A stretch of 64,000 nt of DNA from Cyanophora paradoxa CCMP329 (GCA_004431415.1 QPMI01000044.1:62001-126000); one strand, 5' to 3'. Positions 14,456-63,265 are shown, numbered from the stretch's first letter. Numbers and translations are program-made. The notes: a model not told the origin generated them from the sequence alone.

Positions 14456-17400
14456 TTACGCTTGCTGCATCGTCATGCTGCTGCCACCATGCACGCTGTG
14501 CTGCGCGCGCAATAGACCCCACTGCTCCGCGTTGCTCCGAACGTTAGCCGCCATAGCCCGGGCGACGGGCAGCTGGCGGAAGAGTAAGCGTCGACGCCAC
14601 AGACCGAAGCGTCGTCGCTTTAATTTATTTGAGGGCTTCGCCTCACCTCGGGGGCGACGGCGGCGAGGGTTTCGTAGAGCGGCTGGACGACAGCCGTCAG
14701 GAAGCCAACCTGCCGCGACGCGTTGCCGCGGTCGGGTTCATCTGAGCGGTTTACATTGCGGTCAGCCAATATGCGAAACGGTTTGCGAAACGCGAACGCG
14801 CGCAATAAGCAACTGAACATGTGACCCGTGCGCAATACGCTTAAACAACAATTTGCAAGGCGGAAACGCACTTGTCGGGGAGAACCCGGGCGTGGGTTCC
14901 AGCGCCATCTCCGCCTCCAACGTTGATTGCTCGAAAAATTCCTGCGGCGAAATGTTCGAGAGGGTACGGCGACGATGATGACGACGATGGATATTCGTAT
15001 ATGCACCTGCTGAATCTGGGTGGCGGAAATCTTCGAGTGCTCGAACGTGCGGGCGCCGTTGGCGAGGTCCGCGCACTTCAGCAGAAGTCCCCCCAGCAAG
15101 GCCTGCATCGCCGATCGAGACGCGATGCTGCCGTCAGCGCCGCGGCGGAGGCCACTGGAATCGGGCTGGTTCACGCGACCTTTTCGCTGTAGTGGGAGAA
15201 CCGGGAGCACGGGCTCGACCCGGGGGCGGCCGCGGGGATGCCCGAAACGCCCTTGCAGGCGGGGAACCGCCTCGCGAGAGAGACCTGACCACACACGCGC
15301 GCGAGAACAGCGCCAAAATTAAAGCAGTGAAACCGTTTGACGGGGCGGGGCGCGGGACGGACGAGGAAGTCGTTGTGGAGGACCATGTCCGTCGCCAGCA
15401 CCGCATCCACCGCAAGCTGCCGCAAGCAATCAGCCGGCGCTGGTTGTCGCCAGCTGCAGCAGAGCGTCGCTCGCACCTGGGAGAAGCGCTCCTGGTCGGC
15501 CCGCGACATGTTGGCGAGGATGTGTACGTCCTTTCTTTGCAAGAGACTGAGCAACGTTGCCGCGTGGTGCCGCTCCAGCGGGCTGACGGCCGCAGATACG
15601 TTGTTGAAATTTGGCGGAAGCGAAACAGTCAGGAGGAGCCTCGGAGGGCGGACCTGCTGTTGCTGTAGAGGATGGCCATCGGCGCGTGGCTCTTCGCGAG
15701 GAAAGCGTTCGTCACGCCCGGGTGGTCCAGGTCTGCACACGCCGCGGCCGTTCAATGAAGGCAGACGCGGATCGACGCGCCGCGCGGGGGCACCGTGGCA
15801 GAGGCCGGCGACGAGGAGGGCGAACGTCTCCACGTCGTCGAACGCAACGCTGCGCGAGGCGCGCGCGTGAGTGAGAGGCGCTATGCAGCTCCGCAAAATG
15901 CCATAGACGGTTCGTGCGCACGAATTCGAGGGGACCGCCGGCTCGCCCCCGAACGCGACCGGAGCAGCAGCCGCTCCGCCTCCGCCGGCGTCGACGTCCG
16001 GATCCAAGGCGGCTTCGGCCGCGATCGCGGCTGGCTGCGTCCGCCTGGTGCAGTCACGCAGACACCGCGGTCAGCCAACTTCAAGATGGGACGAGGATCT
16101 AGAGGAACGCACTGCTTGAGGCCGAGGAGGAAGATGAACATGCACTGGGCGACGTCGATGGCGTGGTGCACGTTCTGTGTGCAGTACCGGCAAGGTCGCC
16201 AGAGGACAATGCCACAAACGCGAGCTCGTGAAGAACACGCACATGGAAAGAATTCTTGTCACGGTAGGTAGACAGGGCGACGTTGACGAATGCAACGAAA
16301 TCCCCTTCGTCGATGCGAAGCGCGTCGATAAGCTGCCGCACGTTACAGAAGTTACGGCGATGATTTCAAAGCTGTAAGATCTAAATCACGACGAACCCCG
16401 AGTAGTCGCGTCATTCCGAGCATAACAGCCGCGAGGTCGGTTTTGGGCCATGCAAGCGACGAAAACTCCGGCGAAATGATCCTCGGATCAAACTGCACGG
16501 CGGTTGTCGCCTACGTTAGCTGTTAAGCTATATATAGCTATCTACAATTTTGATTTACGTTCACGTGAAAATAGCGAAATACGAGCTGGAGCTTGAGGGA
16601 GGGCGCGGCCGTACCCGCAGCTGTGCGGCGAGCTTGCGAAGCGAAGCCTGTCCTTGTGGACGGTGCGACTCGTGATCCGAGCGCGTCGTTATCAACTGGC
16701 CCAGTCCGTGGCTGTGTTCGGGATCGCTCGGTTTTGCGCCTTGCAAGAAGTAGGTCCTCATCTCGCCTATGCCCTTCCTGCGTGCCCGATTAATATTGTA
16801 AAGAAGCATGCATTAGCAGATCTATAGCTAGAACATGGTTTCAGATCCAAAGAAAGCGAACGTACACGTGGATGCGGCCGCGCTCCTCCAGGGCGAACTT
16901 GGAGCGGAGGTGGTAGTATGTTTCCTCCGTCACCTAAGCACGGGCCGGGGCGCGCGTGAGCCGGCGGCGCGAGAGCCAGGGGCGAGGACGACGGGTCGTG
17001 GCACCTGGGTGCGGCCGGGAACGCCGGAAGACTCCATGCGACTCGCGACGTTGACTGCGGTTCGAGGACGTTTTTCAGTACATGCACCAGCAATGCATAT
17101 AATGCATGCTCGGGTTTGAGGTTTTGCGCTGCGCACCGGTATCTCCCCACTGCAAAAAGGGCGCGCCAATGAGAATTGCGATTTTGAGGAGGCAAGTTTG
17201 CAGAGGACAAAGCCAAAACAAGCGAACGCCGCACCAGGTCGTACAGAAGCTTTTTCTTGCCGATCACCCTGATCGCGAGATTAACAGCTGATGTTGACAC
17301 TGGCTAACCCAGCAGAAGAAGCGAAGGCTTAGGAGGGCCGCACCCGGCGATGACGGTGCCGCAGTGGATGCCGATGCGGATGCGGAACGAGCGCCCGTCG

Positions 17401-37144: not shown

Positions 37145-38275
37145 TCACTCAGCCCCCAGGAGGGGGAGAATGTCGGGCAAGATGTCGTCCGGGGGGAAGC
37201 CCGGGGGGTACCGCGCCACGGGCACGCCGTTGCGGTCGACCAGGAACTGCGGGGCGGCGTCAGGGTACCGAAAGGTTCGAGATGCAGGGGTACGGGAAAG
37301 GACCTTCTCGAAGTTCCAGGCTATATCCCCGGGGAAGCTTGCTCGCAGGAGGTCCTTGTAGAGGGGTACCGCGTTCGCCCTGCGGTGAGCCGGAATCGGG
37401 ACGCGGCGGGGGTACAGGCCTGGGGCCCCAGGGGGTACGTACCCGTTCACGTCGACCTTGTCGAAGAGGGGGAAGCGGGCCTTGTACTTGTCGCGAACGA
37501 AGGATTTGATCTCCTCGTTTGTACCCGGCTCCTGCACGCGTACCCCTCGAATGGGAGGGGGAAGCAGGAGGTCGGAGGGGGAAGAAGAGGGACCTGGCCC
37601 CCGAACTGGTTGGAAGGGAAGGCGAGAATCTCGAATCCCTTCGACGCATACTCGTCGTACATGGCGCCGAGTTGCCTGCGGCGCAGAAATCGATTCCCAG
37701 GCGGACGGCCGTGCGCGTGCGCGCGGGCGGGCGGAATGGGACTGAGCGCACGTGTAGTTCAGGGGCGTCAGGGCTCATTCGGACGCAACGTTTACGACGA
37801 GAACCTGCGCGGCTGCTGTTTGGCGCTGGCGCGATGCTGGCTCCAGCTTAGCCGCCGGCACGCACGACTTTGCCGCGGAACTTGGAAAGGTCCACGCTGC
37901 GCCCGTCGATGTCGCGGACCGTGAAGTCGTACAGCGTGCGATCCACTTTCATCGGCTCGCGGCGCTCCGCAGGCCGCGGAATCGCCGCCGCCGGCATCGC
38001 CGGAACTGCACCCGCGGAGTCGACGTCGCACGTGCGCGCGGCGCGGAGTCGGGGGAGCTCGCACCGGTCTCTCCGAGCACAAAGCCAAAGGCAGCGCTGC
38101 CTGCCGCGGCGAGGAAGCGGCGCCGCGTCCCCGGCGGGCCGGCGAAGGCCGCCGGACGCGGAGCGGCTCTCCGGGCGGCCGGCGAGCCGCCGGCGCCGCA
38201 GACGCGCCCCGCGAGCCTCGTCGGCCTCGCGGACGCCGCGAGCGCCGCAGGACCGGCGAAGACGAAGCCAGGCAT
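37145..38275 (-). CDS. GPX: Selenocysteine glutathione peroxidase (PHGPX-like) with bipartite plastid/thylakoid-lumen presequence
   Basis: LYDFTVRDIDGRSVDLSKFRGKV|VLVVNVASE-TGA(37775-37777)-ALTPLNYT|QL...FEILAFPSNQFGGQ|EPG...FDKVDVNG...IAWNFEK|FLVDRNG; TGA at the catalytic position plus a downstream SECIS. N-terminus MPGFVFA..., TRRRFL + hydrophobic stretch + PAAA. Confidence 0.95.
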
Positions 38276-38672
38276 AGAGCGCTGACCTCCGGATCCAAGG
38301 CTTGCCGATGCCTATAGGGGGGTTCGAGGACGAATCGGACTTGCACGGATCGCGCGCGGGGCTCGCGGATGCAACGCTGCTTCGAGGCTAATTAGCGCTC
38401 GGCGATTGCAAGTTCAGGTGTTTGTCAGGCGTTCTGGGCTAGGCTTCAAGGCTTACTAGGCGAGACCCCATCCCAACAGTGGCGGCGCACCGCCCCTAGG
38501 CCTGGCCCAGCAAGTAGACTGTGAGAGGGTACCTAATCTTAATCTCAATAAGCTGCGTTCTGCCTATCTAGATCTGCGCTACCTTAGCTACGAGGCTATT
38601 CTGCAGCCGTGCTAGCACTAGATAACGGCGGAAAGGCCAGCATGAAAGGAAGGAAGCCTTGAGGGGCGCGGA

Positions 38673-38962
38673 CTAGGACCAGACGTCGAGCGCCGCGTCG
38701 GCCCCCGTTTCCGCGGCCAGGCCGCCCTCTATGTGCAGCTCGTCCAAGTCCTGGGCCGGGGTCAGGAATGGAAAAAGAGAGGGGGGGGGGGCAGTGGGAG
38801 GGGTACGAGGGCGGGCGCACATGGGAGACCTCGGGCTCGACGTAGGCCCCCTCCGAGGGGTACGAGGCCGCCGGCTCGAGCTGGGGGCCGTACGCGCCCC
38901 CGTCCTCCTCGGCGGCGCTGCCCTCCTGCCCGCCGCCGCCGCCGCCGCCGCCCTCCTCCTGT

Positions 38963-38999
<37 letters not shown>

Positions 39000-40184
39000 G
39001 GAGGGAAGGGTCCTCGACGAACGAAGTGAAGCCGGTGGTGTTGGCGGTCGCGAGCGCCGCCATCGGGTTCATTTCGAGCACCGACTCGTCTATGAGGGGC
39101 GGCAGGCCGGCCGCCTCGCGGATCGCGGAGAGGTCCACGTTCTGGTTCTTGAAGGTCCCCGTCGTCTTGTCCCAGTCGAGCAGCTTCATGATGTTCTCGT
39201 CCACAGGGATCTCGGCCCTGCACGCACGCACGCGGCCGCCCGCGCGAGTCAGCGCCGGCCTGCGGGGAGCGCGGTGCGGGGCGCGGGGCGCGGGGCCCGC
39301 GGGGCGCACCCGTCGGCTGTGATGATGGAGCGTGGCAAGTAAACGTCGCGGTACTCCATCTCCCAGTGGCCCCGCAGCGGTATCGGGTCTCCGACCTCGT
39401 ACTCGGGCGCGTTCTCCGAGGAAGGCTCCCAGTCAGGGATCCACGGTCCCACGGACTCCTCCGGGTCGTCGATTGTCTCCACCGAGACGGTGCGCACGTC
39501 GCGGCGCACGACGCGCGACTCGCCCCGCTGCACCCGCGCGCCGTCCTCCGTTGTCCACGAGTCCTCGCCGTCGTGGTCATCGCGTCCGCGCTGCCCTTCA
39601 GAGATCTCGCGCCGCCGCTCCTCGCGCGCCCTCGCCTCGCGCAGCTCTTCCGCGCGCTCTTCCTCCTCAGGATCAGGCTCCGGCTCCGGAACAACGTAGA
39701 CTTTTCCACCGATGATGACGTCGTCCGAGGGAGTGCTCGAGAAGCCCGAAGGCAGGCCCATCGGGCCCCGCTGGAATCACACGCTGCTAGTCGCCAGTAG
39801 ATGTACGCTACAAGACGCTGCGAAGCTGGCCGCCGCCGCCGAAGCTCCTACCGCTGTGGTCCGGACGAAGTTGCTTTGAGCTTGCACGCCTGTTGCTGCC
39901 CGATGTATCTATGACGAAACCTGTGAATCCGAGGCGTCCAGGGCGCTCGCCCGTGCTGTTTTCGGGAGGCTCCTAGCTCCTTGCAGTGTGTACCCGGGCC
40001 TTTGGCGTTCCGCTTGTACCCGGGTTTCCACTTCCCGCGCCACCCATCGGCCGCGTACGGCCGCGAGGGCGCAATCGCCGAGCACGAGAGACGGTGCGTG
40101 GCTCGTTGGTGCCTCGCCTCGCCCCCGAACTCACAGTCGCCTGGCATGGGCAGGCGAACGCAGATCGCTCGCTTCGCCCGACAT
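38673..40184 (-). CDS. Hypothetical acidic protein (multi-exon), start uncertain
   Basis: GC3-biased exons GKVYVVPEPEPDPEEEERAEEL...GHWEMEYRDVYLPRSIITADG|AEIPVDENIMKLLDWDKTTGTF...|DLDELHIEGGLAAETGADAALDVWS*; no family recognised. Confidence 0.65.
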
Positions 40185-40298
40185 CTCAGCGCGGCCTCGG
40201 CTAGCGTTCAAGGGCGAAGAAGGCGGCCGGCGGTTCTCCTCGTCGGCGGTAGCTGTAGGAGCGGCTAGCCGCCCTCGCGCCATCTCGAGCTCGCAGCC

Positions 40299-43200
40299 AT
40301 GGCCGATGTGGATGTGTTGATCGATATCATCGATTTGGAAAGCGGTGCGTGTGCCGGCAGGCGGCAGGCAGCAGGCGGTTTTGACTGGCGCGCGCATGCG
40401 CATGCGCATTCGCCTGCAGATCCTGAGGGCGCCACCCCAGCGACCGGCGAAGCAGTGGGGCCTTTCGAGAGCAGCGGTTCCTTGGAAGGTGTGCACGCAT
40501 CGGCACCGCAGGGCTCAGGCCTAGGCAGTTCTAGATCTCACCCGCGGCCGCGGCCGCGGCCGCGCGCGCTCTAATCATGAACGCTTCTGACAGGAGCCCG
40601 AGGCGGCGCCAGCGACCGACAGGAGACCGCAGGAGGTTCCGAGCAAGGTAAAGACGATGCCGCCGAGCTCGAGTCAAGCCGCTCCTTGGCGGCACGTGTT
40701 TCCGCCCTGGCTAACCGGGGGTACACGCAGCGAGCGATGAGGAGGATGCAGACGAACACGAGAGACGGCGTGCAAGCAACAAGCGCTCTCCAATCGTGGG
40801 CTCCGGCAAACCGGGACCGAACAAGAGGTGCCCATATGCGTACCCCCCGTTTCCCCCTCCCCCCAACTCCCCCTTAATTCGAACCCTTCACGCAGTAAAC
40901 GGCTGGATGAATCAGACGGGGAAGAAGCACAAGCGGAGGACGAGCTCGCTTTCTCGTGAGCTCCTCCACTTCAAGCCGCTAAAACTTGCTCTCATCTAAC
41001 CTAATTCTGCAGCCAGTCGGAGCCCGTTGGTCGATCCTCATCGGGCAGCGGGCCCGTCGCTGGTCCGTCTTCTTCGGGCACCGGGCCCGGGTGCGAGGAA
41101 GAAGCCTGCTTGGGCCTGCCGCTCCTCGCCTTCAACGTGTGCACCGCTGCAGGAACGATCCTGCAGACCGCCCCGAGTTCGCGGACTGCCAGTTCGGCTA
41201 CCTTCGGCTTCTGGAGCCATTTTGCATTGTCAAGAACCACAAGTTCGAGTACAGGGCGGGCACGTACTGGCCCGTCGAGGTACGGCGTTTTCCACGAACT
41301 GCATTGGTCCCACATGCTGGCTGCAATGCTAACAGCTAAGCAGGTCATCGCGCGTTTCTACGGTGAGTTCGGGCTGGCTGGATCGAAAGTGGGGCAACCG
41401 GGGACGTGGCACTACGTCGTCAACTGGTCTGGCCTCGGGATCGGCTGGGGTTCCCACGACTGCGTCTCCGAGTCAGACATGATCGACCGCTTCCGGCCCT
41501 GGAGTGAGAAGGAGGCCAAAAAGCTGGCGAGGGATCGTCTGATCGCGTGGCAAGGGCAGAACTGGCCAAAGCTGCTGACGAACAGCCCGCCGACGCACGT
41601 CAAGCGCGGCGCGCTCGTCTTCGTCAAGCAGAAGAGAGGCTTCCAATGGCAGTTCTACAAGGTCCGAGACATGTAAACGCATACGAATCTGCCTTTGCTG
41701 GACTTGACGCTGTTCTCCACAGACTTGCAGGCTGGTGGCCATGGGAGGGAAATCGATGCTGCAGGTCACCCGAAAGACAAGCAATCAATCGGAATTCTTC
41801 GCAGTCCCACTGGAGCTCGCACGGCCGCCGGAATTCCTCAAGCAGTTCTCGCAGCTGGATACTCCGTTGATGAGCGAGAGCAACGTCCAGTCAACCGGCG
41901 GCGGCAGCACGAGCGACCACCAGCAGCAGCAGCAGCAGCAGCAGCAGGAGCAGGAGAAGACGAAGACGAAGCGCAGTCTCTCCGCCTCTGGAAGTGCGAT
42001 CTTTCCTTCTCTGGAGAGCAGCGCTAGCAGCCGGTCAGACGAGGAGGGGGGGGAAGATTCCGACGGCAGCTCCGGGTCCGAGAGCAGCGTCGGCGGCGAC
42101 AGCGACAGCGCAAGCGGCTCCGGATCCTCTGAGCGATCAGCGCCTTCGCGGCGATCGCGAGTGAGCGGGAAGAAGCCATCGACAGCGACGGACTACGCTG
42201 ATGACGGGGAGTACGGGTCCGGATCGGCGGGAGGGGCGCGCGGTCCCCAGCCCGAGCCCTCTAGCCAAGGGGGATGCGCGCGCGGCAGGGTCTCGGAGCC
42301 CTGGACCGGGTTCGTTTAGTTTTTTTGCCGCGCGGTTTTCAGGCGCAGTTACGGTTGTCGTGATCATGGACGATTTTAACCATTACACAGAAAAATGGAG
42401 CTTCTGCCTGCCGCTGCAAAGCGGTGCATCCGCTGCCTTGCGAAGGACAGCAACGTGACCCCAGTCTTCTCGGTGCGCTCAGAGTCGAATTCTCGCATTG
42501 CAATTGTTTCCGAATCGCCAACGTCTCTGCAGCACATTGTGTACCAGGGCCTTGCCGCCTGCTACAACTGCACGGTGGACATCGCGGATATTGACTGGGT
42601 GAAGGACGTCGACGTGGAGGACGTGGACTCGGGCGACTTCCCATTCGTGGAGGGCACGCAGGCCGAGATTCCGAAGCAGGGCAAAGGGAAGAAAGCTGCA
42701 GTCGAGGCTTCTGGATCCAAGAAAACATTAAAGTGATCTCATTCCATGCCAGTAACCTCTGTCTCTGCAGCTATTGACCGGCAGCAGATTCTGCGCTCTT
42801 GGCGGCTGGCGCTGCAAGGACGACTGTTCTCTCGTCTGCTCGAACTCCAAGTGCAAGAACATATTCTGCCGGCTGTGCATCGAAGCCTGCTTCGGCAAGG
42901 GCGTCCTACAGGATGAGGAGCTGACGGACACAGACCCGACTCGAGAGTGGTCCGTTGCTTATAATTACTGCTCTGCATGATAACTGTTCTTCTTCTTAAC
43001 TTCCAGCGGACTTGACCGGGGGCCGCGCAGGATCTGCTTCGAATGCAGAGAGTCGCGCATTCTGAAGCGGCAGGAGCGACAGACTGTTTGTATGCTTTGA
43101 AATCCTCCCTCTCTCCGTACAAGGTTTTCCTTTCGATCTGACCACTTGAATTCCGCGCCAGACGACATCTGGATGAAGCTCATCGAAGTGGACCGGGAGA

Positions 43201-46188
43201 TTTACCACCCGCAGCTGGTGTCGAAAGTGAAAGCCACGAACAGAGCAATCGAGAAGCACAACGCTTTCGTAGAGAAGGAGGGCTGCCGCATGAAACTGCG
43301 CATGCCGTCGCGCGCGGCTGTCCAGGCTGAGGGCCTCATCGTCGTGTCCTTGTTCGATGGTGCGCGCTCGGCACCTTGATCTGGCCTGTTGTATACGTAG
43401 TTGTTATCTTGGACCTAATCTCGGGCATCACCAGGGATTGCCGGGGCGTACCACTCGCTGGTGAAGGCTGACATCAAGGTGCACTCTTAAGCTTGTGATT
43501 GGCGCACACTCCATTGACGCTCCAACTCTGCTCTCGGCTGCGCAGGTGCACAAGTACTACTGCGTCGACATCGACCGGGACGTAGTGAAGCTCGTGAGCG
43601 ACTGGTCGGGCCACGACCCGGAGGGCGCCGGCCGGATCATCAGCGGCGTGGTTGAGGACCTGAGCAAAGTCGACGTGCGTCCGTCCTTGGACCATGTCTC
43701 AATATATATAGACTTTTTCTTCGTCGTCGTCGAGTCGCGTTGATGCCACTGGCACGCAGGCCCGGGCGTTCCTGCAGAAGATCTACAACGAGCACGGGCG
43801 CATCGACTTGCTTGTCGCGGGATTCCCGTGCAACGACCTCGCCAGGAACAACCCGGTGCGCTTCGAATTCGCGTTTCCGCACGATCGTTTAAATATTAGC
43901 CAGCTCGCGCGCTTCTCATCGCCATCGCCAACCGCCCCTCTTATTTCTCATTCGAATTTTCGCTCCAGAACGGAAGGGGACTCGACGGCGACCACAGCAG
44001 CCTCGTGCACAAGGCGCGTGCCGTTGCCGAGTCTAGATCTCTTCTGAAAGAATAGTAATTCCTGACATTGGTTTCGTTTTTGCCGTGCAGGTCGCCGAGT
44101 TCTTGGACGCGGCCCGCAGGATCACCAAGAACCACGGCTTCCCCTTCCTGGTGGAGAACGTGCACACGATGCACAAAACTGGCGGTGCGGTTGCGGGACC
44201 CGCCTCACAGGCCTAGCGTGTGTCATAGCGGCTCTCTCGGCCTCTGACGCTGTGACGCTCTCGCGCAGGCAAAGACTCCGCAAAGATCGTCGATGGCATA
44301 TTCAAGGTCCGCCACGAACGTTCTAGCGCTATGCAGACCTAAGGGCGGCGTGCTGACGTGTCCTGCTCGGATCGGACAGGTCGAGAACGTGGCCATCGAC
44401 GCGATTTACTTCACCGCAGCCAAGCGGAAAAGACGGTGAAGTAGAGAAAGATGCACTGACTCCAGATATGGAACACTGACACGGCCCCAGCTATTGGACG
44501 AACATTCCGATCGAGCGCATCAAGCCAGATCGCAAGCGCTGCCTCCTCCAGGGTCCGTGCCCATATGCATGCAGAAGAAGATTTGCTTAACTTGTCCGCT
44601 TAACTTGACTGCTTATCAACTTATATCCATTCTGCTCCTCTTATCCCTTCGCAGACTTCCTCAGCGGCACGAATCGCCTGGCGCTGGTCGACCACGTCAA
44701 CACGATCACGACGTCAGGTAAGAAGGTGGTGGAGGAGGAGGAGGAGGAGGAGGAGAAGGACCGGCCGCGGGGGAGCACGTGGGGCCGCCCCTCGGCCAAG
44801 TCACCCTGGGCGCGGGTCGTCAAGGACGCGTGCGTCATAGGCATTTGAGCGCTTCATTATATACAACTATAAGCACTATAAGCCCTATAACTATAGCGCT
44901 TTTAAGCGCTTCATTATACACAACTATAGGCCCGCCGCTTGGTTATAGGCTGATAAGCTTATTATAAGCAGCTGCACGGACACGTGCGTCCTTTAGCTTG
45001 CCCGAGCCCGCGCCAGGCTGTAGGCCCCTGCTCGCCTCGCCCCTCTTCTTTCGATGATCATGACCGCCGGACCCCGGCCCTTCCAGGACCGATCTCAGCA
45101 AATGCACACTGTGCGATTCCCTCCCACCGCCTTCGATGTTTTCCATCAAGCCTGATCGTGATCGTGACCGTGGTCCCAGTTTGCAGCGCGAGCTGGAGGT
45201 GCTGATGGGCTTCCCCGCCAACTACACGGCCGACATGGGCACTTTGTGCGGCCCCTGCCCCGCCCCGAATTCGTATCCACAAATGCATAAAGCTCCTAAA
45301 CTACGACATCAATCATTTGAATTACCTCAACTAACTAAACACTTTATGATTTCGACTCATTCGCGCATCCCGATCTGCAGCGCTCGCCGCAAGGTCCTCG
45401 GCAATTCCTTCTGCATCCCGGTCCGCTCCCGCCCTCGTCGTAGGGGTTTAAACAGCCTACTAGGAGTCTAAATCGCTGATCGCTCTGATCGCTGATCGCT
45501 GATCGCCCCGCCCCGCCCCGCTCCGCCTTGCGTTCAGGTCATCGCCCACATCCTCAAGGGCCTCCTCCCCCACACCCTCGGCCCGGCACCCCCCTCCCCC
45601 TCCCCCTCCTCCTCCTCCTCCGATGTCGACGTGGATCCCGCCCCGTCCTCCTCCTCCTCCGATGTCGACCCCGCCCCATCCTCCTCTTCCTCGCCCGGGC
45701 CTGCCCCTGGCCCGTCGTCGTCCTCCTTCTCCGCCGCCGCCGCCACCATGGCCGCCCCGCGGCCGGCATCTTCTTCACGGTCCGTCTCTCTCTACTCGCT
45801 CTAGATCCGTCCGTCTCTCTCTCTCTACGTGCTGCCCGGCCTGACGCGCCGCCACCGCGGCAGGAAGCGGCGCGCCCCCTCGGAGTGGGAGGGGGAGGAG
45901 GGGGAGGAAGGGAACGCCACCAGCGAAGATGAAGGCGACGACGATGGTGGAGAGAACCGCTCGCCCACTCCGCCCAACGCCTCCTCCTCTCCGTCGGCGC
46001 CAGCACAGGCGCCGGCGCCTGCGCCCCGCCCGCCGCCCCCTCGGAATCCGAAGCCCAAGGCCAAGCGGCCTGCCGCGGGGAGCTCAAGGGCGCCGGCCCG
46101 CTCGCTGCCGCCCCGCGCCGCGGCGCGCCGCCTCGCCGGCTCCGCGGCGGCGCCCATCGAGCTCTCCTCATCCGATGAGGACGAGTAG
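40299..46188 (+). CDS. DNMT3: DNMT3-like C5 cytosine DNA methyltransferase with Royal-family-like domains and an ADD zinc-finger domain
   Basis: MTase motifs VVSLFD|GIAG (I), DLLVAGFPCNDL (IV), FLVENV (VI), IDADYFTAAKRKR.YWTNIP (VIII), TITT, ELEVLMGFPANYT (IX), ARRKVLGNSFCIP|VIAHILKGL (X); ADD: KRCIRC...HIVYQGLAACYNC and FCALGG...LVCSNSKCKNIFCRLCIEACFG...EW|ICFEC. Confidence 0.9.
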
Positions 46189-46484
46189 GGCCGCGGTCTG
46201 CCAGCGCTAGCTATATAGCTGCCGGCCGAGCGTCTCAGGCGCTCTAACTGCAGTCGCTTCTTTTTCATAGCTGCAGCCGATGATGAGGCCGGATGATGAG
46301 GAGGACGAGTAGGGCCGAGTAGGGTGTGTATTCAACCGCAGCGCTTCTTTTTTCATTCAGACCTCTTTTTTAGCCGGCGAGCCCTTGAGCTATCCTCCGA
46401 TGATGAGTACGAGTAGGGCCGCGGCCGGCCGGCTGCCGGCCGTGCGTCCCAGGCGTGGTAGCTGCAGCCGCTTCTTTTTCATTC
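46166..46484 (+). repeat. Three degenerate tandem copies of the DNMT3 stop-codon/3' UTR unit
   Basis: GATGAGGACGAGTAGGGCCG-like at ~46175, ~46295 and ~46400, each followed by GCAG(T/C)CGCTTCTTTTTCAT-like sequence. Confidence 0.8.
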
Positions 46485-47122
46485 AAAGATTCTTTTCGTG
46501 CCAGCGAGCAATCTTAGTTCGTTGAAGAGACTTTTCCCCCGCACTACGGTATTTCCCGTATTTCAAGTTTCCCGCCGCAGATCAGAATCTCGCGCGTCAT
46601 ACACGGCGTATCGCTTTTTCACAACCAGAACCGTTTCTCGAGAAGCGCGGCGCTTTGTAATTTCGGTGGCTATCGATATCTTCTGTGCGAGTTCGGTCGC
46701 GGCTAATTTATAGATTCGATCTTTCTGTTGTAAGCTTAAGGACCTCACTCAAGCTCAGTTGCGAGCAGCACTTTCTCGGCGGCTTTCTGTTCTCGGCGTA
46801 CGTGTACGATGCCGAATCTAAATTACGTGCTTACTGTCCTGAGAGATCGACGCATGTTCAACGGTTTCTTGAGCTTCTTGTATAATCAAGCTTCCTGGCC
46901 CCCTGGACCGCACAGTTTTCTCGCACAGTTCGCAACAGTAACCAGCCTGGCAGGCCAAGTGTTGTGGATACCTAGCCTTGTAATTGCAGCTCTAGATCTA
47001 GCCTTGACGTTTGCGTTCACCAGTGACTCAGTATACGTAGTAGATAAAGTGTACTGTACATGCTTGGATAGGTACGATATGACCACGCGCGAGAGCTAGA
47101 GCCTGAGAGCGGGCTACATAAG

Positions 47123-60350: not shown

Positions 60351-63265
60351 ATGGAGGAGCGCAGCGGGGCGACGCCCGCAGGTCCGTGAAGTGTTTTGAA
60401 ATATGAAGCCGATTGGGAGAGAAATTCGCGAGGCCTCTGATCATGAAGTGATTATAAACGCGCACGCAGACGTGCCCGAGCGGCTCATGGAGTGCGCGAA
60501 GACGAGCGGGCGCGTACGCACGGTGTTGCGAGAAAGTGAGGAAACATCTTCCGCGGCGTTGTCCTCGAGCTCGGACGTCGACGGCAGCAGCATTCGCAAG
60601 CGCATGCGCAGCACGTCGCTGGTGCTGAGCGCCAGTGTGCATCCGGAAGAGGACACTAGTAGTTATACTGCGTCGGCGGAAGATTCGAATTCCGAAGCAT
60701 ATGCATCAGCTGCAGCCGAAGGTGTCGATCCCGAATTTGAATTCGAAGCGGCGGCGGCACCGATCGCGATCGCGATATCCATCGAGCAGCTTCCGGACGT
60801 GATTCTCTCGAAAATTCTCGAGTGTCTGGGCCTGAAGGCGTCGGCCGCGACGCGTTTCGTATGCCGCCGCTGGCGCGACGCGGCCGATGCGGTCTTCTGG
60901 CACCAGCTCGACCTCAAGCTGTACGCGGAGAGCGCGGACGAGCTCGCGGGCCTCTTGATCGGCGCTCAAGACCTGGACTGGAGCCAGCTGGACGACGCTG
61001 CGCGAGCGGAAATTATCTGGCAGCGTGCGGGCCGCGGGCACCGGATTCGAGTCGCCGCGGGCGCTTCCCTGCGCCTGGAGGTCACCCCCGTCGATATTGA
61101 GGACATCGAAGTCGATGGCCTCGAAGTATGGCAATCCACCCTCTCCCTCCTCGCGGCGTGCGCGGCCGCGGCCGGCGCGGCGAGTGGCACCAGCACTGGC
61201 CATGGCGGCCTGGGCGCGGTCGACGTGGACTGCTCGTGCTCCCCGGACTCCAGCTGCATCGCAGACATGCTCAACGCCGTCGTGCCGCCGAGCGCCCCCG
61301 TCTGCCGCTCGCTCCGCAACCTCTCCCTGCGGGCTGTCTACTCTAGATTTAAATCTGAAGATTCTTTCTCACTTGGAGTCGGCCCCAACTTCCGGCGCTT
61401 GATCTTCCCGAACCTCGAGAGCCTCCTCGCGATCGGCAACGAGCCCTGCTTTTACGCCTGCCGCGCCGACGCGGAGGCCCTCGCCCGGTGCCTGCCAAAC
61501 CTTAAACGGGTGTGCAGCCGCTGAGCCGCTCCCTTCTCGCGATCGCGATCGCGATTCCATGTTGACATATCATGATCATGTACCATGTTGACGTGCAATT
61601 GGATCCGCAGCTGGATGTGCGGTTCGATCACGAAGATCTAGAGCTGGGGGCCACCGGCAAGCTCGAGGGGTTCATCAGTGAAGCCGCAGCAGTGTTCCCA
61701 GCTCTCGAGTACTTCAAAACAACATTGTACTCCGCGGCGGCCGAGGATATGTATGTCAGAGAAGACGCCGCGCCCTTGCTCGAGGGCCTCGCCTCCGGCC
61801 CCGCCGCCCTCTCCCTCAAGGAGTGCGTACCCGTCCAGGATTCTTGCCGTCCAGCACAATTTTGAGCTGAGCCGCGTGCTCATGCATATGATCAGGATTG
61901 TGCTGGATTGGAGGAATGCAATTGCCGTGCAGTGGGAGCTCTCTCCGCTGGCCCTGCGCGCTCTCGAACGCTTCCCCGCCCTTCAGCGCCTCCGTGGAAT
62001 TCCGTCTGTCTCGGTCCGTGCCACCCCTCGCCCCGCCCATCCCAACCCTTCTCCGCCGCTCGACTCTGCCTGCCCTGATCGAAGGCCTCTGATGACCTTG
62101 CAATTGCATTATTCGCGAAGGTGCCCTCTGAGACTGCCGAAGATGACCTGGCCGTGCTGGGGTCCCTTCCGGCGCTCACAAGCGTGGGGCCACTTGAGAT
62201 CCGCACGCGTGACAAAGATCCAGAGAGCCTCGTCGCCCGCTTGAACGGCCTCGCCGCCGTCCTCGAGCGCTCTTCCTCGTTGACCGATCTCCGGCTCGAA
62301 ATTTGTGCATCCGGATCCCCAATTAATTTCCTGCTAGCGCTTGTCCCGCTCTGACGGGGGTCCCTGCAATTTTCCTTGTTGTCAAGAGCTCACGACGCAA
62401 CAGACTCTCTGCCTCTGGAGGCGTCCCCGGCGCTCGCTCGGCTCATCACGACTGGTGCCCTTCGACGGCGGCTCGCCATAGATCTTCGAATTCATGCAAG
62501 GGAACCGCGGCCGGAGGTCGAGGAGGCCCTGGCTGCGCTGGGCTCCTGCCCGGGACTCACGAGCTTGGGGAGGCTAAGTTCTTGCGGTGAGGCTGTTCCA
62601 ACGGTCTTGAACGGCCTCGCGGCGGCCTTCGAGCGCTCCTCCTCGCTTACCGACCTCGAGCTATTCATCGAGCTCTGTGCGGCCCTTTTTTCCCCTCTTA
62701 GCTCACATGTACATGCCTCGTTAGAGCTAACGAGGCATGTACATGTGCAACAGACGATTTGCTACCGGAGGCACTGGCGGCGCTCGCGCGGCTGGCCAGC
62801 GCGGCCCGCGGGCGCTTTTCCCTCGCGGTCCGGCTCGTGGTGGGGCGATTGCAAGACCGCGCGCGGGCCAAATTCATTTGAGGGGGTAGCCGCGGCGCTG
62901 GCGGCCTCCCCGCCCCGCAGCCTTGCCCTCGGCCTCTGCGTATACGGAGACGAAGCAGACGTCGTGATCAGCCGCCTGAAGGGCCTCGCCGCCTTCGCCT
63001 TCGCCGGCTGTTTGAATTCCACGGGGGACATCGAGGTCTGCGAGCTCTGCAGCTGGCCTCTGGGCGGGGCCGCCTTGATTAGCTTCCTGGCGGCTTGCAA
63101 TTAATATTGCGGTTATATATAATTATTAATTGAAGACGCCCGCAGGTACGCTTGAAGAGTACCGCGGCCGAGAGCGCGCGCGTGCGGTGCGCCGCACGTG
63201 AATCTGCGGCCAAAGCCCTCCCCACTGCCCGTATCCTGATGCGCGACGACGATGATGAATGGTAG
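60351..63265 (+). CDS. F-box protein with C-terminal LRR-like repeats
   Basis: F-box SIEQLPDVILSKILECLGLKASAATRFVCRRWRDAA (~60780-60885); LRR-like units (SLRNLSL, FPNLESL, LPNLKR, FPALEYF, FPALQRL, SSLTDLRL); start ATG GAG GAG...G|gt; last exon ends DDDDEW*. Confidence 0.85.

What the first reader, a model, noticed from the sequence alone, without database searches (positions are those of the whole stretch)
40299..46188. Animal-style chromatin-reader DNMT3 (Royal-like + ADD + MTase) in an alga
Seen: a complete ADD (GATA-like CxxC...CxxC at ~42426-42570 and PHD-like finger at ~42790-43047) directly before an unpermuted DNMT3-type catalytic domain with the catalytic Cys intact (GFPC). Upstream are two aromatic beta-barrel-like segments (YWPVEVIARFY...WHYVVNWSG...HDCVSE; VKRGALVFVKQKRGFQWQFYK). 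Established: PWWP-ADD-MTase is the animal DNMT3 layout, ADD reads unmethylated H3K4, and plant DRMs use UBA domains instead. Inference: H3K4-guided de novo methylation is either far older than animals or arose convergently. The N-terminal IDIIDLE resembles a SUMO-interacting motif.
Basis: partly seen in the sequence, partly recalled or inferred. Interest (0 to 1): 0.78.

Follow-up and report, generated by a model that had tools for sequence, protein, structure and literature searches.

The report
Animal-style histone-reader DNMT3 in alga
The alga Cyanophora paradoxa makes a spliced transcript for a DNA methyltransferase that carries a diverged copy of the zinc-finger module animals use to read histone H3, a pairing published as animal-only, so histone-guided DNA methylation may be older than animals, although histone binding here is only predicted.

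Summary
The core observation holds. 40299-46188 is one 28-exon gene of the glaucophyte Cyanophora paradoxa (about 1190 aa; EukProt record P0001). The catalytic domain is unpermuted, intact and DNMT3-like (fold Z 29 to DNMT3A/B, 22 to DNMT1/HhaI). The fingers are a diverged ADD: 12 cysteine ligands in ADD order, 30.7 bits on an animal-ADD profile, 0 of 1000 cysteine-fixed shuffles as high; the CDCA7 finger pattern is not met. Pfam alone misses it, which may explain why three papers state that non-animal DNMT3s lack such domains. The ADD is not canonical: a 36-residue insertion sits in the H3K4-reading loop, so reading of unmethylated H3K4 is plausible but unshown. The two N-terminal 'Royal-like' barrels did not match PWWP or any Pfam family and stay unclassified. 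The catalytic domain falls outside the animal clade; ancestry versus convergence is unresolved. No other non-animal DNMT3 among those fetched has an ADD. Verdict: new variant of a known kind, interest 0.62.

The parts
40012..40298 (+). 5' UTR with one 60-base intron (40094-40153); no upstream ATG
   Evidence: RNA-type contig begins at 40012, joint 40093/40154 in 2 of 4 runs
40299..46188 (+). DNMT3 coding sequence, 28 exons, 1190 aa. Exons: 40299-40344, 40420-40488, 40594-40647, 40731-40827, 40896-40955, 41013-41090, 41153-41279, 41344-41661, 41723-42309, 42391-42472, 42533-42732, 42788-42949, 43031-43089, 43162-43359, 43435-43478, 43546-43674, 43760-43855, 43969-44013, 44091-44184, 44269-44306, 44380-44435, 44491-44552, 44655-44829, 45087-45110, 45180-45245, 45381-45420, 45538-45779, 45864-46188
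   Evidence: 23 of 27 coding introns seen as joints; 4 (after 44829, 45110, 45245, 45420) inferred from frame, homology, depth and contig length and agreeing with P0001. 26 GT-AG, 1 GC-AG, 55-257 bases
40299..41165 (+). Low-complexity acidic/serine-rich N-terminus (aa 1 to about 139), beginning with a SIM-like motif (pattern recalled, untested)
   Evidence: translation
41217..41510 (+). Aromatic segment 1 (aa about 157-232), followed by a predicted helix; by eye reminiscent of a chromo-barrel or PWWP, unclassified
   Evidence: no Pfam, PDB, PWWP-profile or hhalign match; Atlas Chromo cluster 0.76, a lead only
41596..41827 (+). Aromatic segment 2 (aa about 262-318), putative small beta domain, unclassified
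   Evidence: in frame across joint 41661/41723; PWWP profile z 0.7; strands predicted only at pLDDT under 50
41880..42309 (+). Disordered Gln/Ser/Gly-rich linker; includes the CAG repeat at which all contigs break and 72 bases that P0001 treats as an intron but RNA-type contigs retain
42425..42571 (+). ADD GATA-like finger (C491, C494, C516, C519)
   Evidence: alone z 2.8 against full shuffles (0 of 200), z 1.8 with cysteines fixed (8 of 200)
42572..42791 (+). 55-aa GATA-to-PHD linker with a 36-residue insertion; first 22 residues hold 9 acidic, last 22 hold 7 basic residues
   Evidence: pLDDT under 50 in the model
42792..43046 (+). ADD PHD-like finger (C575, C582, C590, C595, C600, C603, C629, C632; fifth ligand Cys, not His; one spare Cys586)
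   Evidence: 20.7 bits on animal ADD profile; hhalign probability 95, 0 of 60 shuffles; PF21255 E 0.0045
43047..43331 (+). ADD C-terminal helix and a longer helical linker to the catalytic domain
   Evidence: alignment; predicted helices
43332..45561 (+). DNMT3-type C5-cytosine methyltransferase domain (aa 704-1010), motifs I to X in unpermuted order; D712, G713, P793, C794, E839, N840, R877, R879, W882 invariant across 38 aligned rows
44972..44983 (+). Possible 12-base micro-exon used in P0001 (adds 4 aa); unresolved
   Evidence: sequence and comparison with P0001; too short to be laid by contigs
45562..46188 (+). Low-complexity Ser/Pro/acidic C-terminal tail ending in a second SIM-like motif with an acidic flank (pattern recalled, untested)
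   Evidence: joint 45779/45864

Best explanation
This is the expressed DNMT3-type cytosine methyltransferase gene of the glaucophyte Cyanophora paradoxa, and its catalytic domain is preceded by a diverged ADD zinc-finger module that likely binds the histone H3 tail and would steer de novo CG methylation toward chromatin lacking H3K4 methylation. Shown: one gene, spliced, with fingers and catalytic domain on one transcript; intact catalytic residues; ADD homology. From established knowledge: in animal DNMT3A the ADD binds H3 unmethylated at K4 through D529, D531 and Q534, and its acidic loop 526-533 blocks the DNA-binding site until H3 binds (PMC6316889). Inferred: the algal ADD folds around three zincs, binds H3, and gates the enzyme, with the acidic first half of the insertion supplying the K4-binding and autoinhibitory acids; methylation is thereby kept off active 5' ends and falls on repeats and silent genes. 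The two N-terminal segments are probably further chromatin-contacting domains, but their family is not established. On origin I lean to an old ADD-DNMT3 fusion lost in most lineages (about 0.5) over independent recruitment (0.35) or transfer (0.15).
For: Gene model and joints. Best PDB sequence hits DNMT3B/3C/3A, E 9e-23; fold Z 29.4, rmsd 2.5 over 274 residues to DNMT3B against Z 22 for DNMT1 and HhaI. ADD profile from 28 animal DNMT3s scores aa 480-660 at 30.7 bits; maximum of 1000 full shuffles 10.7, of 1000 cysteine-fixed shuffles 17.4. Both halves match in order. Atlas first hit for this part is an ADD_ATRX cluster, 0.83, a lead only. Counted from the last GATA cysteine, positions +12 and +14 are D531 and D533, as D529 and D531 in DNMT3A. 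Motif VIII arginines that the DNMT3A ADD loop contacts have counterparts R877 and R879. The published methylome fits: CG 32%, repeats and silent genes methylated, and in expressed genes methylation rising toward the 3' end (PMC12344493 section 6).
Against: The ADD is below Pfam cut-offs (17.5 of 27 bits; no PF17980 or PF17981 hit at E up to 10). Counted back from the first PHD cysteine, the invariant acid position is K569, and the glycine seen in 20 of 25 animal ADDs is also lost. The first knuckle is C-x6-C. The GATA half alone is weak once cysteines are fixed (8 of 200 shuffles as high). The ADD part of the model has pLDDT of about 50-75 and was built with animal ADD rows. Exclusion of 5mC from H3K4me3 is also reported in Acanthamoeba, whose DNMT3 is reported without companion domains, so the methylome pattern does not need an ADD; DNMT1 could also account for it. 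None of the other non-animal DNMT3-like proteins fetched has an ADD.
Confidence: 0.55

Rival explanations
1. The ADD is homologous but no longer reads H3K4: the insertion and the basic residues before the PHD have destroyed the pocket, and the module serves as a structural, DNA-binding or protein-binding element, while targeting comes from elsewhere.
For: K569 at the PHD-anchored acid position, 36-residue insertion in the reading loop, altered first knuckle; low model confidence across the insertion.
Against: All 12 zinc ligands and the hydrophobic residues before the third PHD ligand are kept; D533 fits the GATA-anchored register exactly.
Confidence: 0.3
2. Origin by convergence: the glaucophyte lineage fused an ADD from an ATRX-like gene to a bare DNMT3, independently of animals. 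It could still read H3, possibly H3K4me0 together with H3K9me3 as ATRX does.
For: ADD exists outside animals in ATRX, e.g. Arabidopsis ATRX (PMC12607251). DNMT3 accessory domains vary by lineage: DUF3444 in 19 plant rows and HIRAN in one unnamed row. Unicellular relatives of animals lack ADD on DNMT3 (PMC11244446). Atlas first hit is ADD_ATRX. Weak PDB hits to ATRX (8.4 bits) and DNMT3L (8.5 bits) tie. A DNMT3-ADD PHD profile scores human ATRX at 25 bits, the same range as this protein on a related profile (20.7).
Against: Same position and order as in animal DNMT3. Ligands 3 and 4 are spaced by four residues as in 25 of 25 parsed animal DNMT3 ADDs; ATRX has two (recalled, not checked), though one animal DNMT3, P0030, also has two. 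The only Pfam hit is the DNMT3-named PF21255.
Confidence: 0.35
3. Ancient eukaryote-to-eukaryote transfer of an ADD-bearing DNMT3 from the animal stem into the glaucophyte lineage (or recent transfer or contamination).
For: The tree that holds Cyanophora with animals is not rejected (AU p 0.39). Patchy distribution.
Against: The 25 animal catalytic domains form a 100/100 clade that excludes it; it sits on a long branch (1.38), weakly beside Balamuthia (80/85). 27 short introns, ordinary base composition, presence in DNA-like and spliced RNA-like runs of one organism rule out contamination and recent transfer.
Confidence: 0.12
4. The fingers are not ADD but a CDCA7-type (zf-4CXXC_R1) or ordinary PHD finger next to an unrelated four-cysteine finger.
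For: Earlier scan notes found such misreadings elsewhere (e1-556825, e1-7188995). Atlas lists zf-4CXXC_R1 (0.77) and PHD (0.79) clusters close behind ADD.
Against: The CDCA7 pattern ends in C-x2-C-x3-C-x-C-x2-C and has seven residues between ligands 4 and 5 (PMC10538959); here nothing follows C632 and the spacing is four. The fifth ligand is Cys, not the His of ordinary PHDs (recalled). Non-cysteine residues are ADD-like.
Confidence: 0.07

Closest known systems
Animal DNMT3A/DNMT3B (PWWP-ADD-MTase; PDB 4U7T, 4U7P, 8EIH, 6U8P)
   Same: ADD directly before an unpermuted DNMT3 catalytic domain; 12 zinc ligands in the same order; catalytic residues; fold Z 29.
   Different: No detectable PWWP; 36-residue insertion in the H3K4-reading loop; C-x6-C first knuckle; longer linker to the catalytic domain; about 180-aa low-complexity C-terminal tail; about 30% identity; outside the animal clade.
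ATRX ADD (PDB 2JM1, 3QL9; also in Arabidopsis ATRX)
   Same: GATA-like plus all-cysteine PHD-like finger; weak sequence similarity.
   Different: ATRX joins it to an SNF2 ATPase and reads H3K4me0 with H3K9me3; ligand spacing here is DNMT3-like (ATRX spacing recalled).
Land-plant DNMT3 (MTase-DUF3444) and DRM (UBA, permuted)
   Same: DNMT3 family, Archaeplastida.
   Different: No ADD in 19 DUF3444-bearing rows; DUF3444 is C-terminal and not detected here; DRM is permuted (recalled), this gene is not.
Protist DNMT3s (Balamuthia P0006; Amoebidium, Acanthamoeba, diatoms, red algae in the literature)
   Same: Balamuthia is the best non-self hit (112 bits, 39%).
   Different: No ADD in P0006; reported as lacking chromatin domains (PMC9998398, PMC11244446, PMC12344493).
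ChloroDNMTs (PWWP-bearing DNMTs of chlorophytes and charophytes; PMC12344493)
   Same: Algal DNMT with a chromatin-reader domain.
   Different: A separate DNMT lineage with PWWP, no ADD reported; no member was compared here.

Membership tests
DNMT3 family | C5-methyltransferase motifs I-X in unpermuted order with catalytic Cys, motif VI Glu, motif VIII Arg pair | tested here: met
   (PF00145 E 7e-12)
DNMT3 family | Catalytic domain closer to DNMT3 than to DNMT1, DNMT2 or HhaI-type enzymes | tested here: met
   PDB sequence hits DNMT3B, 3C, 3A, then DRM; fold Z 29 against 22 (model built with DNMT3 rows)
DNMT3 family | Supported placement within eukaryotic DNMT3 against DNMT3-like prokaryotic and phage enzymes | tested here: inconclusive
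   no starred set holds it; deep nodes unresolved; bacterial-type hits score as high as animal ones
DNMT3 family | De novo methyltransferase activity | not testable with these tools
   organism has 32% mCG but also DNMT1 (PMC12344493)
ADD domain | GATA-like four-cysteine finger with the His-x-x-aromatic-x-Gly stretch before the second pair | tested here: met
   (modest alone)
ADD domain | PHD-like finger with eight cysteines (Cys at ligand 5) and Trp before the last pair | tested here: met
   first knuckle widened to C-x6-C
ADD domain | C-terminal helix after the PHD finger | tested here: met
   alignment and predicted helix
ADD domain | Pfam gathering score for PF17980, PF21255 or PF17981 | tested here: not met
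   PF21255 17.5 of 27 bits; others no hit. Lowers 'canonical member', not homology
ADD domain | 19-residue GATA-to-PHD linker with the invariant acid of the H3K4me0 pocket | tested here: inconclusive
   linker 55 aa; D533 or K569 by register
ADD domain | Binds H3 tail unmethylated at K4 | not testable with these tools
   needs peptide binding
PWWP domain (N-terminal segments) | Match to PWWP profile | tested here: not met
   HMM -0.6 bits, 313 of 1000 shuffles as high; hhalign probability 1.3 or less; glocal z 2.2 off-register and 0.7; profile from 19 animal DNMT3 PWWPs only
Royal family (chromo barrel, Tudor, Agenet) | Barrel fold with aromatic cage | tested here: inconclusive
   no Pfam hit at E up to 10; Atlas Chromo 0.76 lead; single-sequence fold pLDDT 37
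CDCA7 zf-4CXXC_R1 | 11 cysteines ending C-x2-C-x3-C-x-C-x2-C, seven residues between ligands 4 and 5 | tested here: not met
   pattern from PMC10538959 against cysteine positions
SUMO-interacting motif | Binds SUMO | not testable with these tools
   hydrophobic-acidic pattern at both termini; consensus recalled

The most novel reading that the evidence does not exclude
The ADD-DNMT3 fusion, with H3K4me0-gated autoinhibition, predates the split between the ancestors of animals and of plants and algae, and was lost or eroded in most lineages. Cyanophora keeps it, with its two N-terminal barrels acting as a PWWP-like reader of gene-body marks, which would explain the 3'-rising gene-body methylation reported as unique to this alga. 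The full animal-style histone-to-DNA methylation logic would then not be an animal invention.
Probability: 0.22. Interest if true: 0.85.

Novelty: new variant of a known kind. Interest (0 to 1): 0.62.

Why it matters
Recent surveys treat PWWP and ADD on DNMT3 as an animal gain that created the feedback between histone marks and DNA methylation, and state that protist and algal DNMT3s have no companion domains; one of them profiled this very organism with a Pfam threshold (E 0.001) that this ADD does not reach. A cryptic ADD here reopens when H3K4-sensitive de novo methylation arose. It is directly testable: the alga grows axenically, its methylome is published, and the domain can be expressed for peptide binding. 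It also suggests that other 'bare' protist DNMT3s deserve a sensitive re-search.

Tried and rejected
No whole genome held, so paralogs and Cyanophora's own ATRX were not examined. Pfam on single exons or ORFs found only the sub-threshold ADD hit. PWWP assignment of either barrel failed in three profile tests. PDB sequence search with exon 8 gave 2 chance hits, with the PHD exon 0. Single-sequence fold of the whole protein was uninformative (mean pLDDT 36.8) and was not searched. Complex prediction of the ADD region with an H3 tail and zinc returned no answer (the alignment was not used); it is no evidence either way. Fold searches were filled by the catalytic domain, so the ADD fold was not tested alone. 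Searches for close relatives of the ADD found only the protein itself (1 of 2 candidates; 4 of 7988, none from another glaucophyte; 1 hit under 1e-30) and nothing in viral contigs; a metagenome scan with the PHD alignment could not be run. The tree left out three retrotransposon-type rows (P0189, P0190, P0181: long branch or partial) and used 66 of about 200 stored proteins. A planned residue-by-residue table of DNMT3A interface and CpG-recognition positions was not completed, so oligomer interfaces and sequence specificity are left open. No run is on record as RNA; the runs called RNA-type are so called because their contigs are spliced while run X12 is not. Iyer, Abhiman and Aravind 2011 is not held.


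Full report
Observation and gene model. The window is 57-73% GC outside one 51% stretch and no whole genome is held. Runs of one organism hold the region; seven putative RNA runs share 44-47% of its words and three runs of unknown kind 92-97%, as expected for spliced transcripts and genomic DNA. Laying contigs gave 15 displayed joints for 39900-46700, each in 3 of 3 RNA-type runs and absent from run X12; 20 further rows were not shown. A second lay gave 9 joints for the 5' part. All slide to GT-AG, one to GC-AG. With four inferred 3' introns the gene has 28 coding exons and one stop, 1190 aa. The inferred 24-base exon predicts a depth of 1.86 in its bin and 1.86 is observed; the spliced length from 41924 to 45579 is 1998 bases against contigs of 1990, 1992 and 2007, so these contigs probably span fingers and the whole catalytic domain. 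The barrels lie on a separate contig that breaks at the CAG repeat, where the DNA-type contigs break too and the frame is open; that link is inferred. The PHD exon retrieved one protein, P0001, labelled Cyanophora paradoxa in EukProt. It equals my model except for a 24-aa deletion that the RNA-type contigs contradict and 4 extra residues from a possible micro-exon.

Catalytic domain. Pfam PF00145 E 7e-12. PDB hits are DNMT3B, 3C, 3A, then DRM. In a 38-row alignment the motif I Asp-Gly, the motif IV Pro and catalytic Cys, the motif VI Glu and Asn, both motif VIII arginines and motif IX-X residues are invariant. The model (mean pLDDT 70, mostly over 85 in this domain) matches DNMT3A/B at Z 29 and DNMT1 or HhaI at Z 22; the alignment held DNMT3 rows, so this is not independent. 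An HMMER scan of 1.84 billion representatives gave 2383 hits; the best 150 mix animal DNMT3s and short prokaryote-type enzymes, with Balamuthia first.

Zinc fingers. Pfam gives only PF21255, 17.5 bits against a cut-off of 27, and E 0.43 on the whole protein. A profile from 28 animal DNMT3 ADDs hits both halves in order and scores aa 480-660 at 30.7 bits; 0 of 1000 full shuffles and 0 of 1000 cysteine-fixed shuffles reach it. hhalign gives probability 95, 0 of 60 shuffles. Of 201 stored proteins, 48 score over 20 bits on this profile and the next scores 3.2; apart from P0001, every named one is animal, and Balamuthia, 19 plant DUF3444 DNMT3s, a HIRAN-bearing DNMT3 and dinoflagellate-type rows have none. 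The pattern parsed in 25 of 28 animal ADDs; 24 of 25 have a 19-residue linker and 25 of 25 an acid 14 residues after the GATA finger, 6 before the PHD. Here the linker is 55 residues, so the two anchors give D533 or K569. The CDCA7 rival, prompted by earlier scan notes, fails on the published cysteine pattern. Whether this ADD is of DNMT3 or ATRX type could not be settled: no ATRX sequences were in hand; spacing favours DNMT3, scores do not discriminate.

N-terminal segments. By eye the first resembles a chromo-barrel or PWWP and the second the start of a PWWP, but HMM, hhalign and a gap-tolerant profile do not support PWWP, Pfam and PDB give nothing, the Atlas gives a Chromo cluster at 0.76, within the chance range, and the fold is uninformative. 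The 'Royal-like' label is a lead only.

Origin. In the careful tree of 66 catalytic domains, animals (25) and plants (12) are each 100/100; Cyanophora is outside both, on a long branch, beside Balamuthia at 80/85. Holding it with animals is not rejected (AU p 0.39). Recent transfer and contamination are excluded by the introns and the runs; ancestry and convergence both stand.

Mechanism. In DNMT3A the ADD pairs with H3 residues 1-6, reads K4me0 through D529, D531 and Q534, and its loop 526-533 blocks DNA-binding arginines until H3 binds (PMC6316889, passages). I infer the same gating here at about even odds: ligands, the motif VIII arginines and an acidic loop are present, but the loop is much enlarged. 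The published methylome is compatible but does not require it (PMC12344493).

What is known. PMC12344493 (outline, sections 5, 6 and first part of 10, passages; one supplementary text file searched, with no gene id; figures not visible, so I cannot confirm that its DNMT3 is this gene or see its Fig. [quoted passage not shown] PMC11244446 (passages) calls PWWP and ADD an animal acquisition. PMC9998398 (passages) says microalgal DNMT3s all lack chromatin domains. PMC12607251 (passages) gives an ADD in Arabidopsis ATRX. PMC6453930, PMC5890265 and PMC3457860 (term searches) and PMC12695648 (passages) do not mention an algal ADD-DNMT3 in what I saw. Six searches found no report of an ADD on a non-animal DNMT3; the library lacks most subscription papers, including the 2011 Aravind-group review, which may discuss red-algal DNMT3 fingers.

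Verdict. The gene is annotated and its organism studied, but the ADD appears overlooked and contradicts a repeated claim. New variant of a known kind; interest 0.62. It would be higher with H3 binding or a second non-animal case, and lower if the pocket proves dead or the fusion is already described.

Noticed in passing
window 39980-40012: Head-to-head arrangement: contigs of an upstream gene (minus-strand ORFs 39249-39776 and 38596-39432, no Pfam hit for the latter two tested) end at about 39980-39983 and the DNMT3 contig starts at 40012, suggesting a very compact bidirectional promoter.
   Followed up: partly
window 46154-46482: The region around the stop codon recurs: 23-base copies at 46171, 46295 and 46399, and a 51-base pair at 46218 and 46432 (86%), i.e. 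an old tandem duplication of the gene end lying in the 3' UTR.
   Followed up: partly
window 45598-45675: 39-base internal tandem duplication in the low-complexity tail.
   Followed up: partly
window 37792-37900 (minus strand): End of a minus-strand ORF looks by eye like a glutathione peroxidase exon; the long ORF gave no Pfam hit at E 0.001.
   Followed up: no
window 15171-16070 (minus) and 60400-61524 (plus): Cyclic nucleotide phosphodiesterase (PF00233) and F-box (PF12937) exons: ordinary eukaryotic neighbours; 2 of 25 long ORFs tested had a hit.
   Followed up: partly
window 1-64000: CpG observed/expected is 1.09-1.31 in all eight 8-kb blocks, with no depletion despite 32% reported CG methylation genome-wide.
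   Followed up: no
P0160: An unnamed 803-aa DNMT3-like protein with an N-terminal HIRAN domain (PF08797), another non-animal DNMT3 with a companion domain; it branches outside animals and plants.
   Followed up: partly
L001-L017: 17 contigs of the viral collection encode a canonical histone H3 N-terminus; host contamination or captured genes not distinguished.
   Followed up: no
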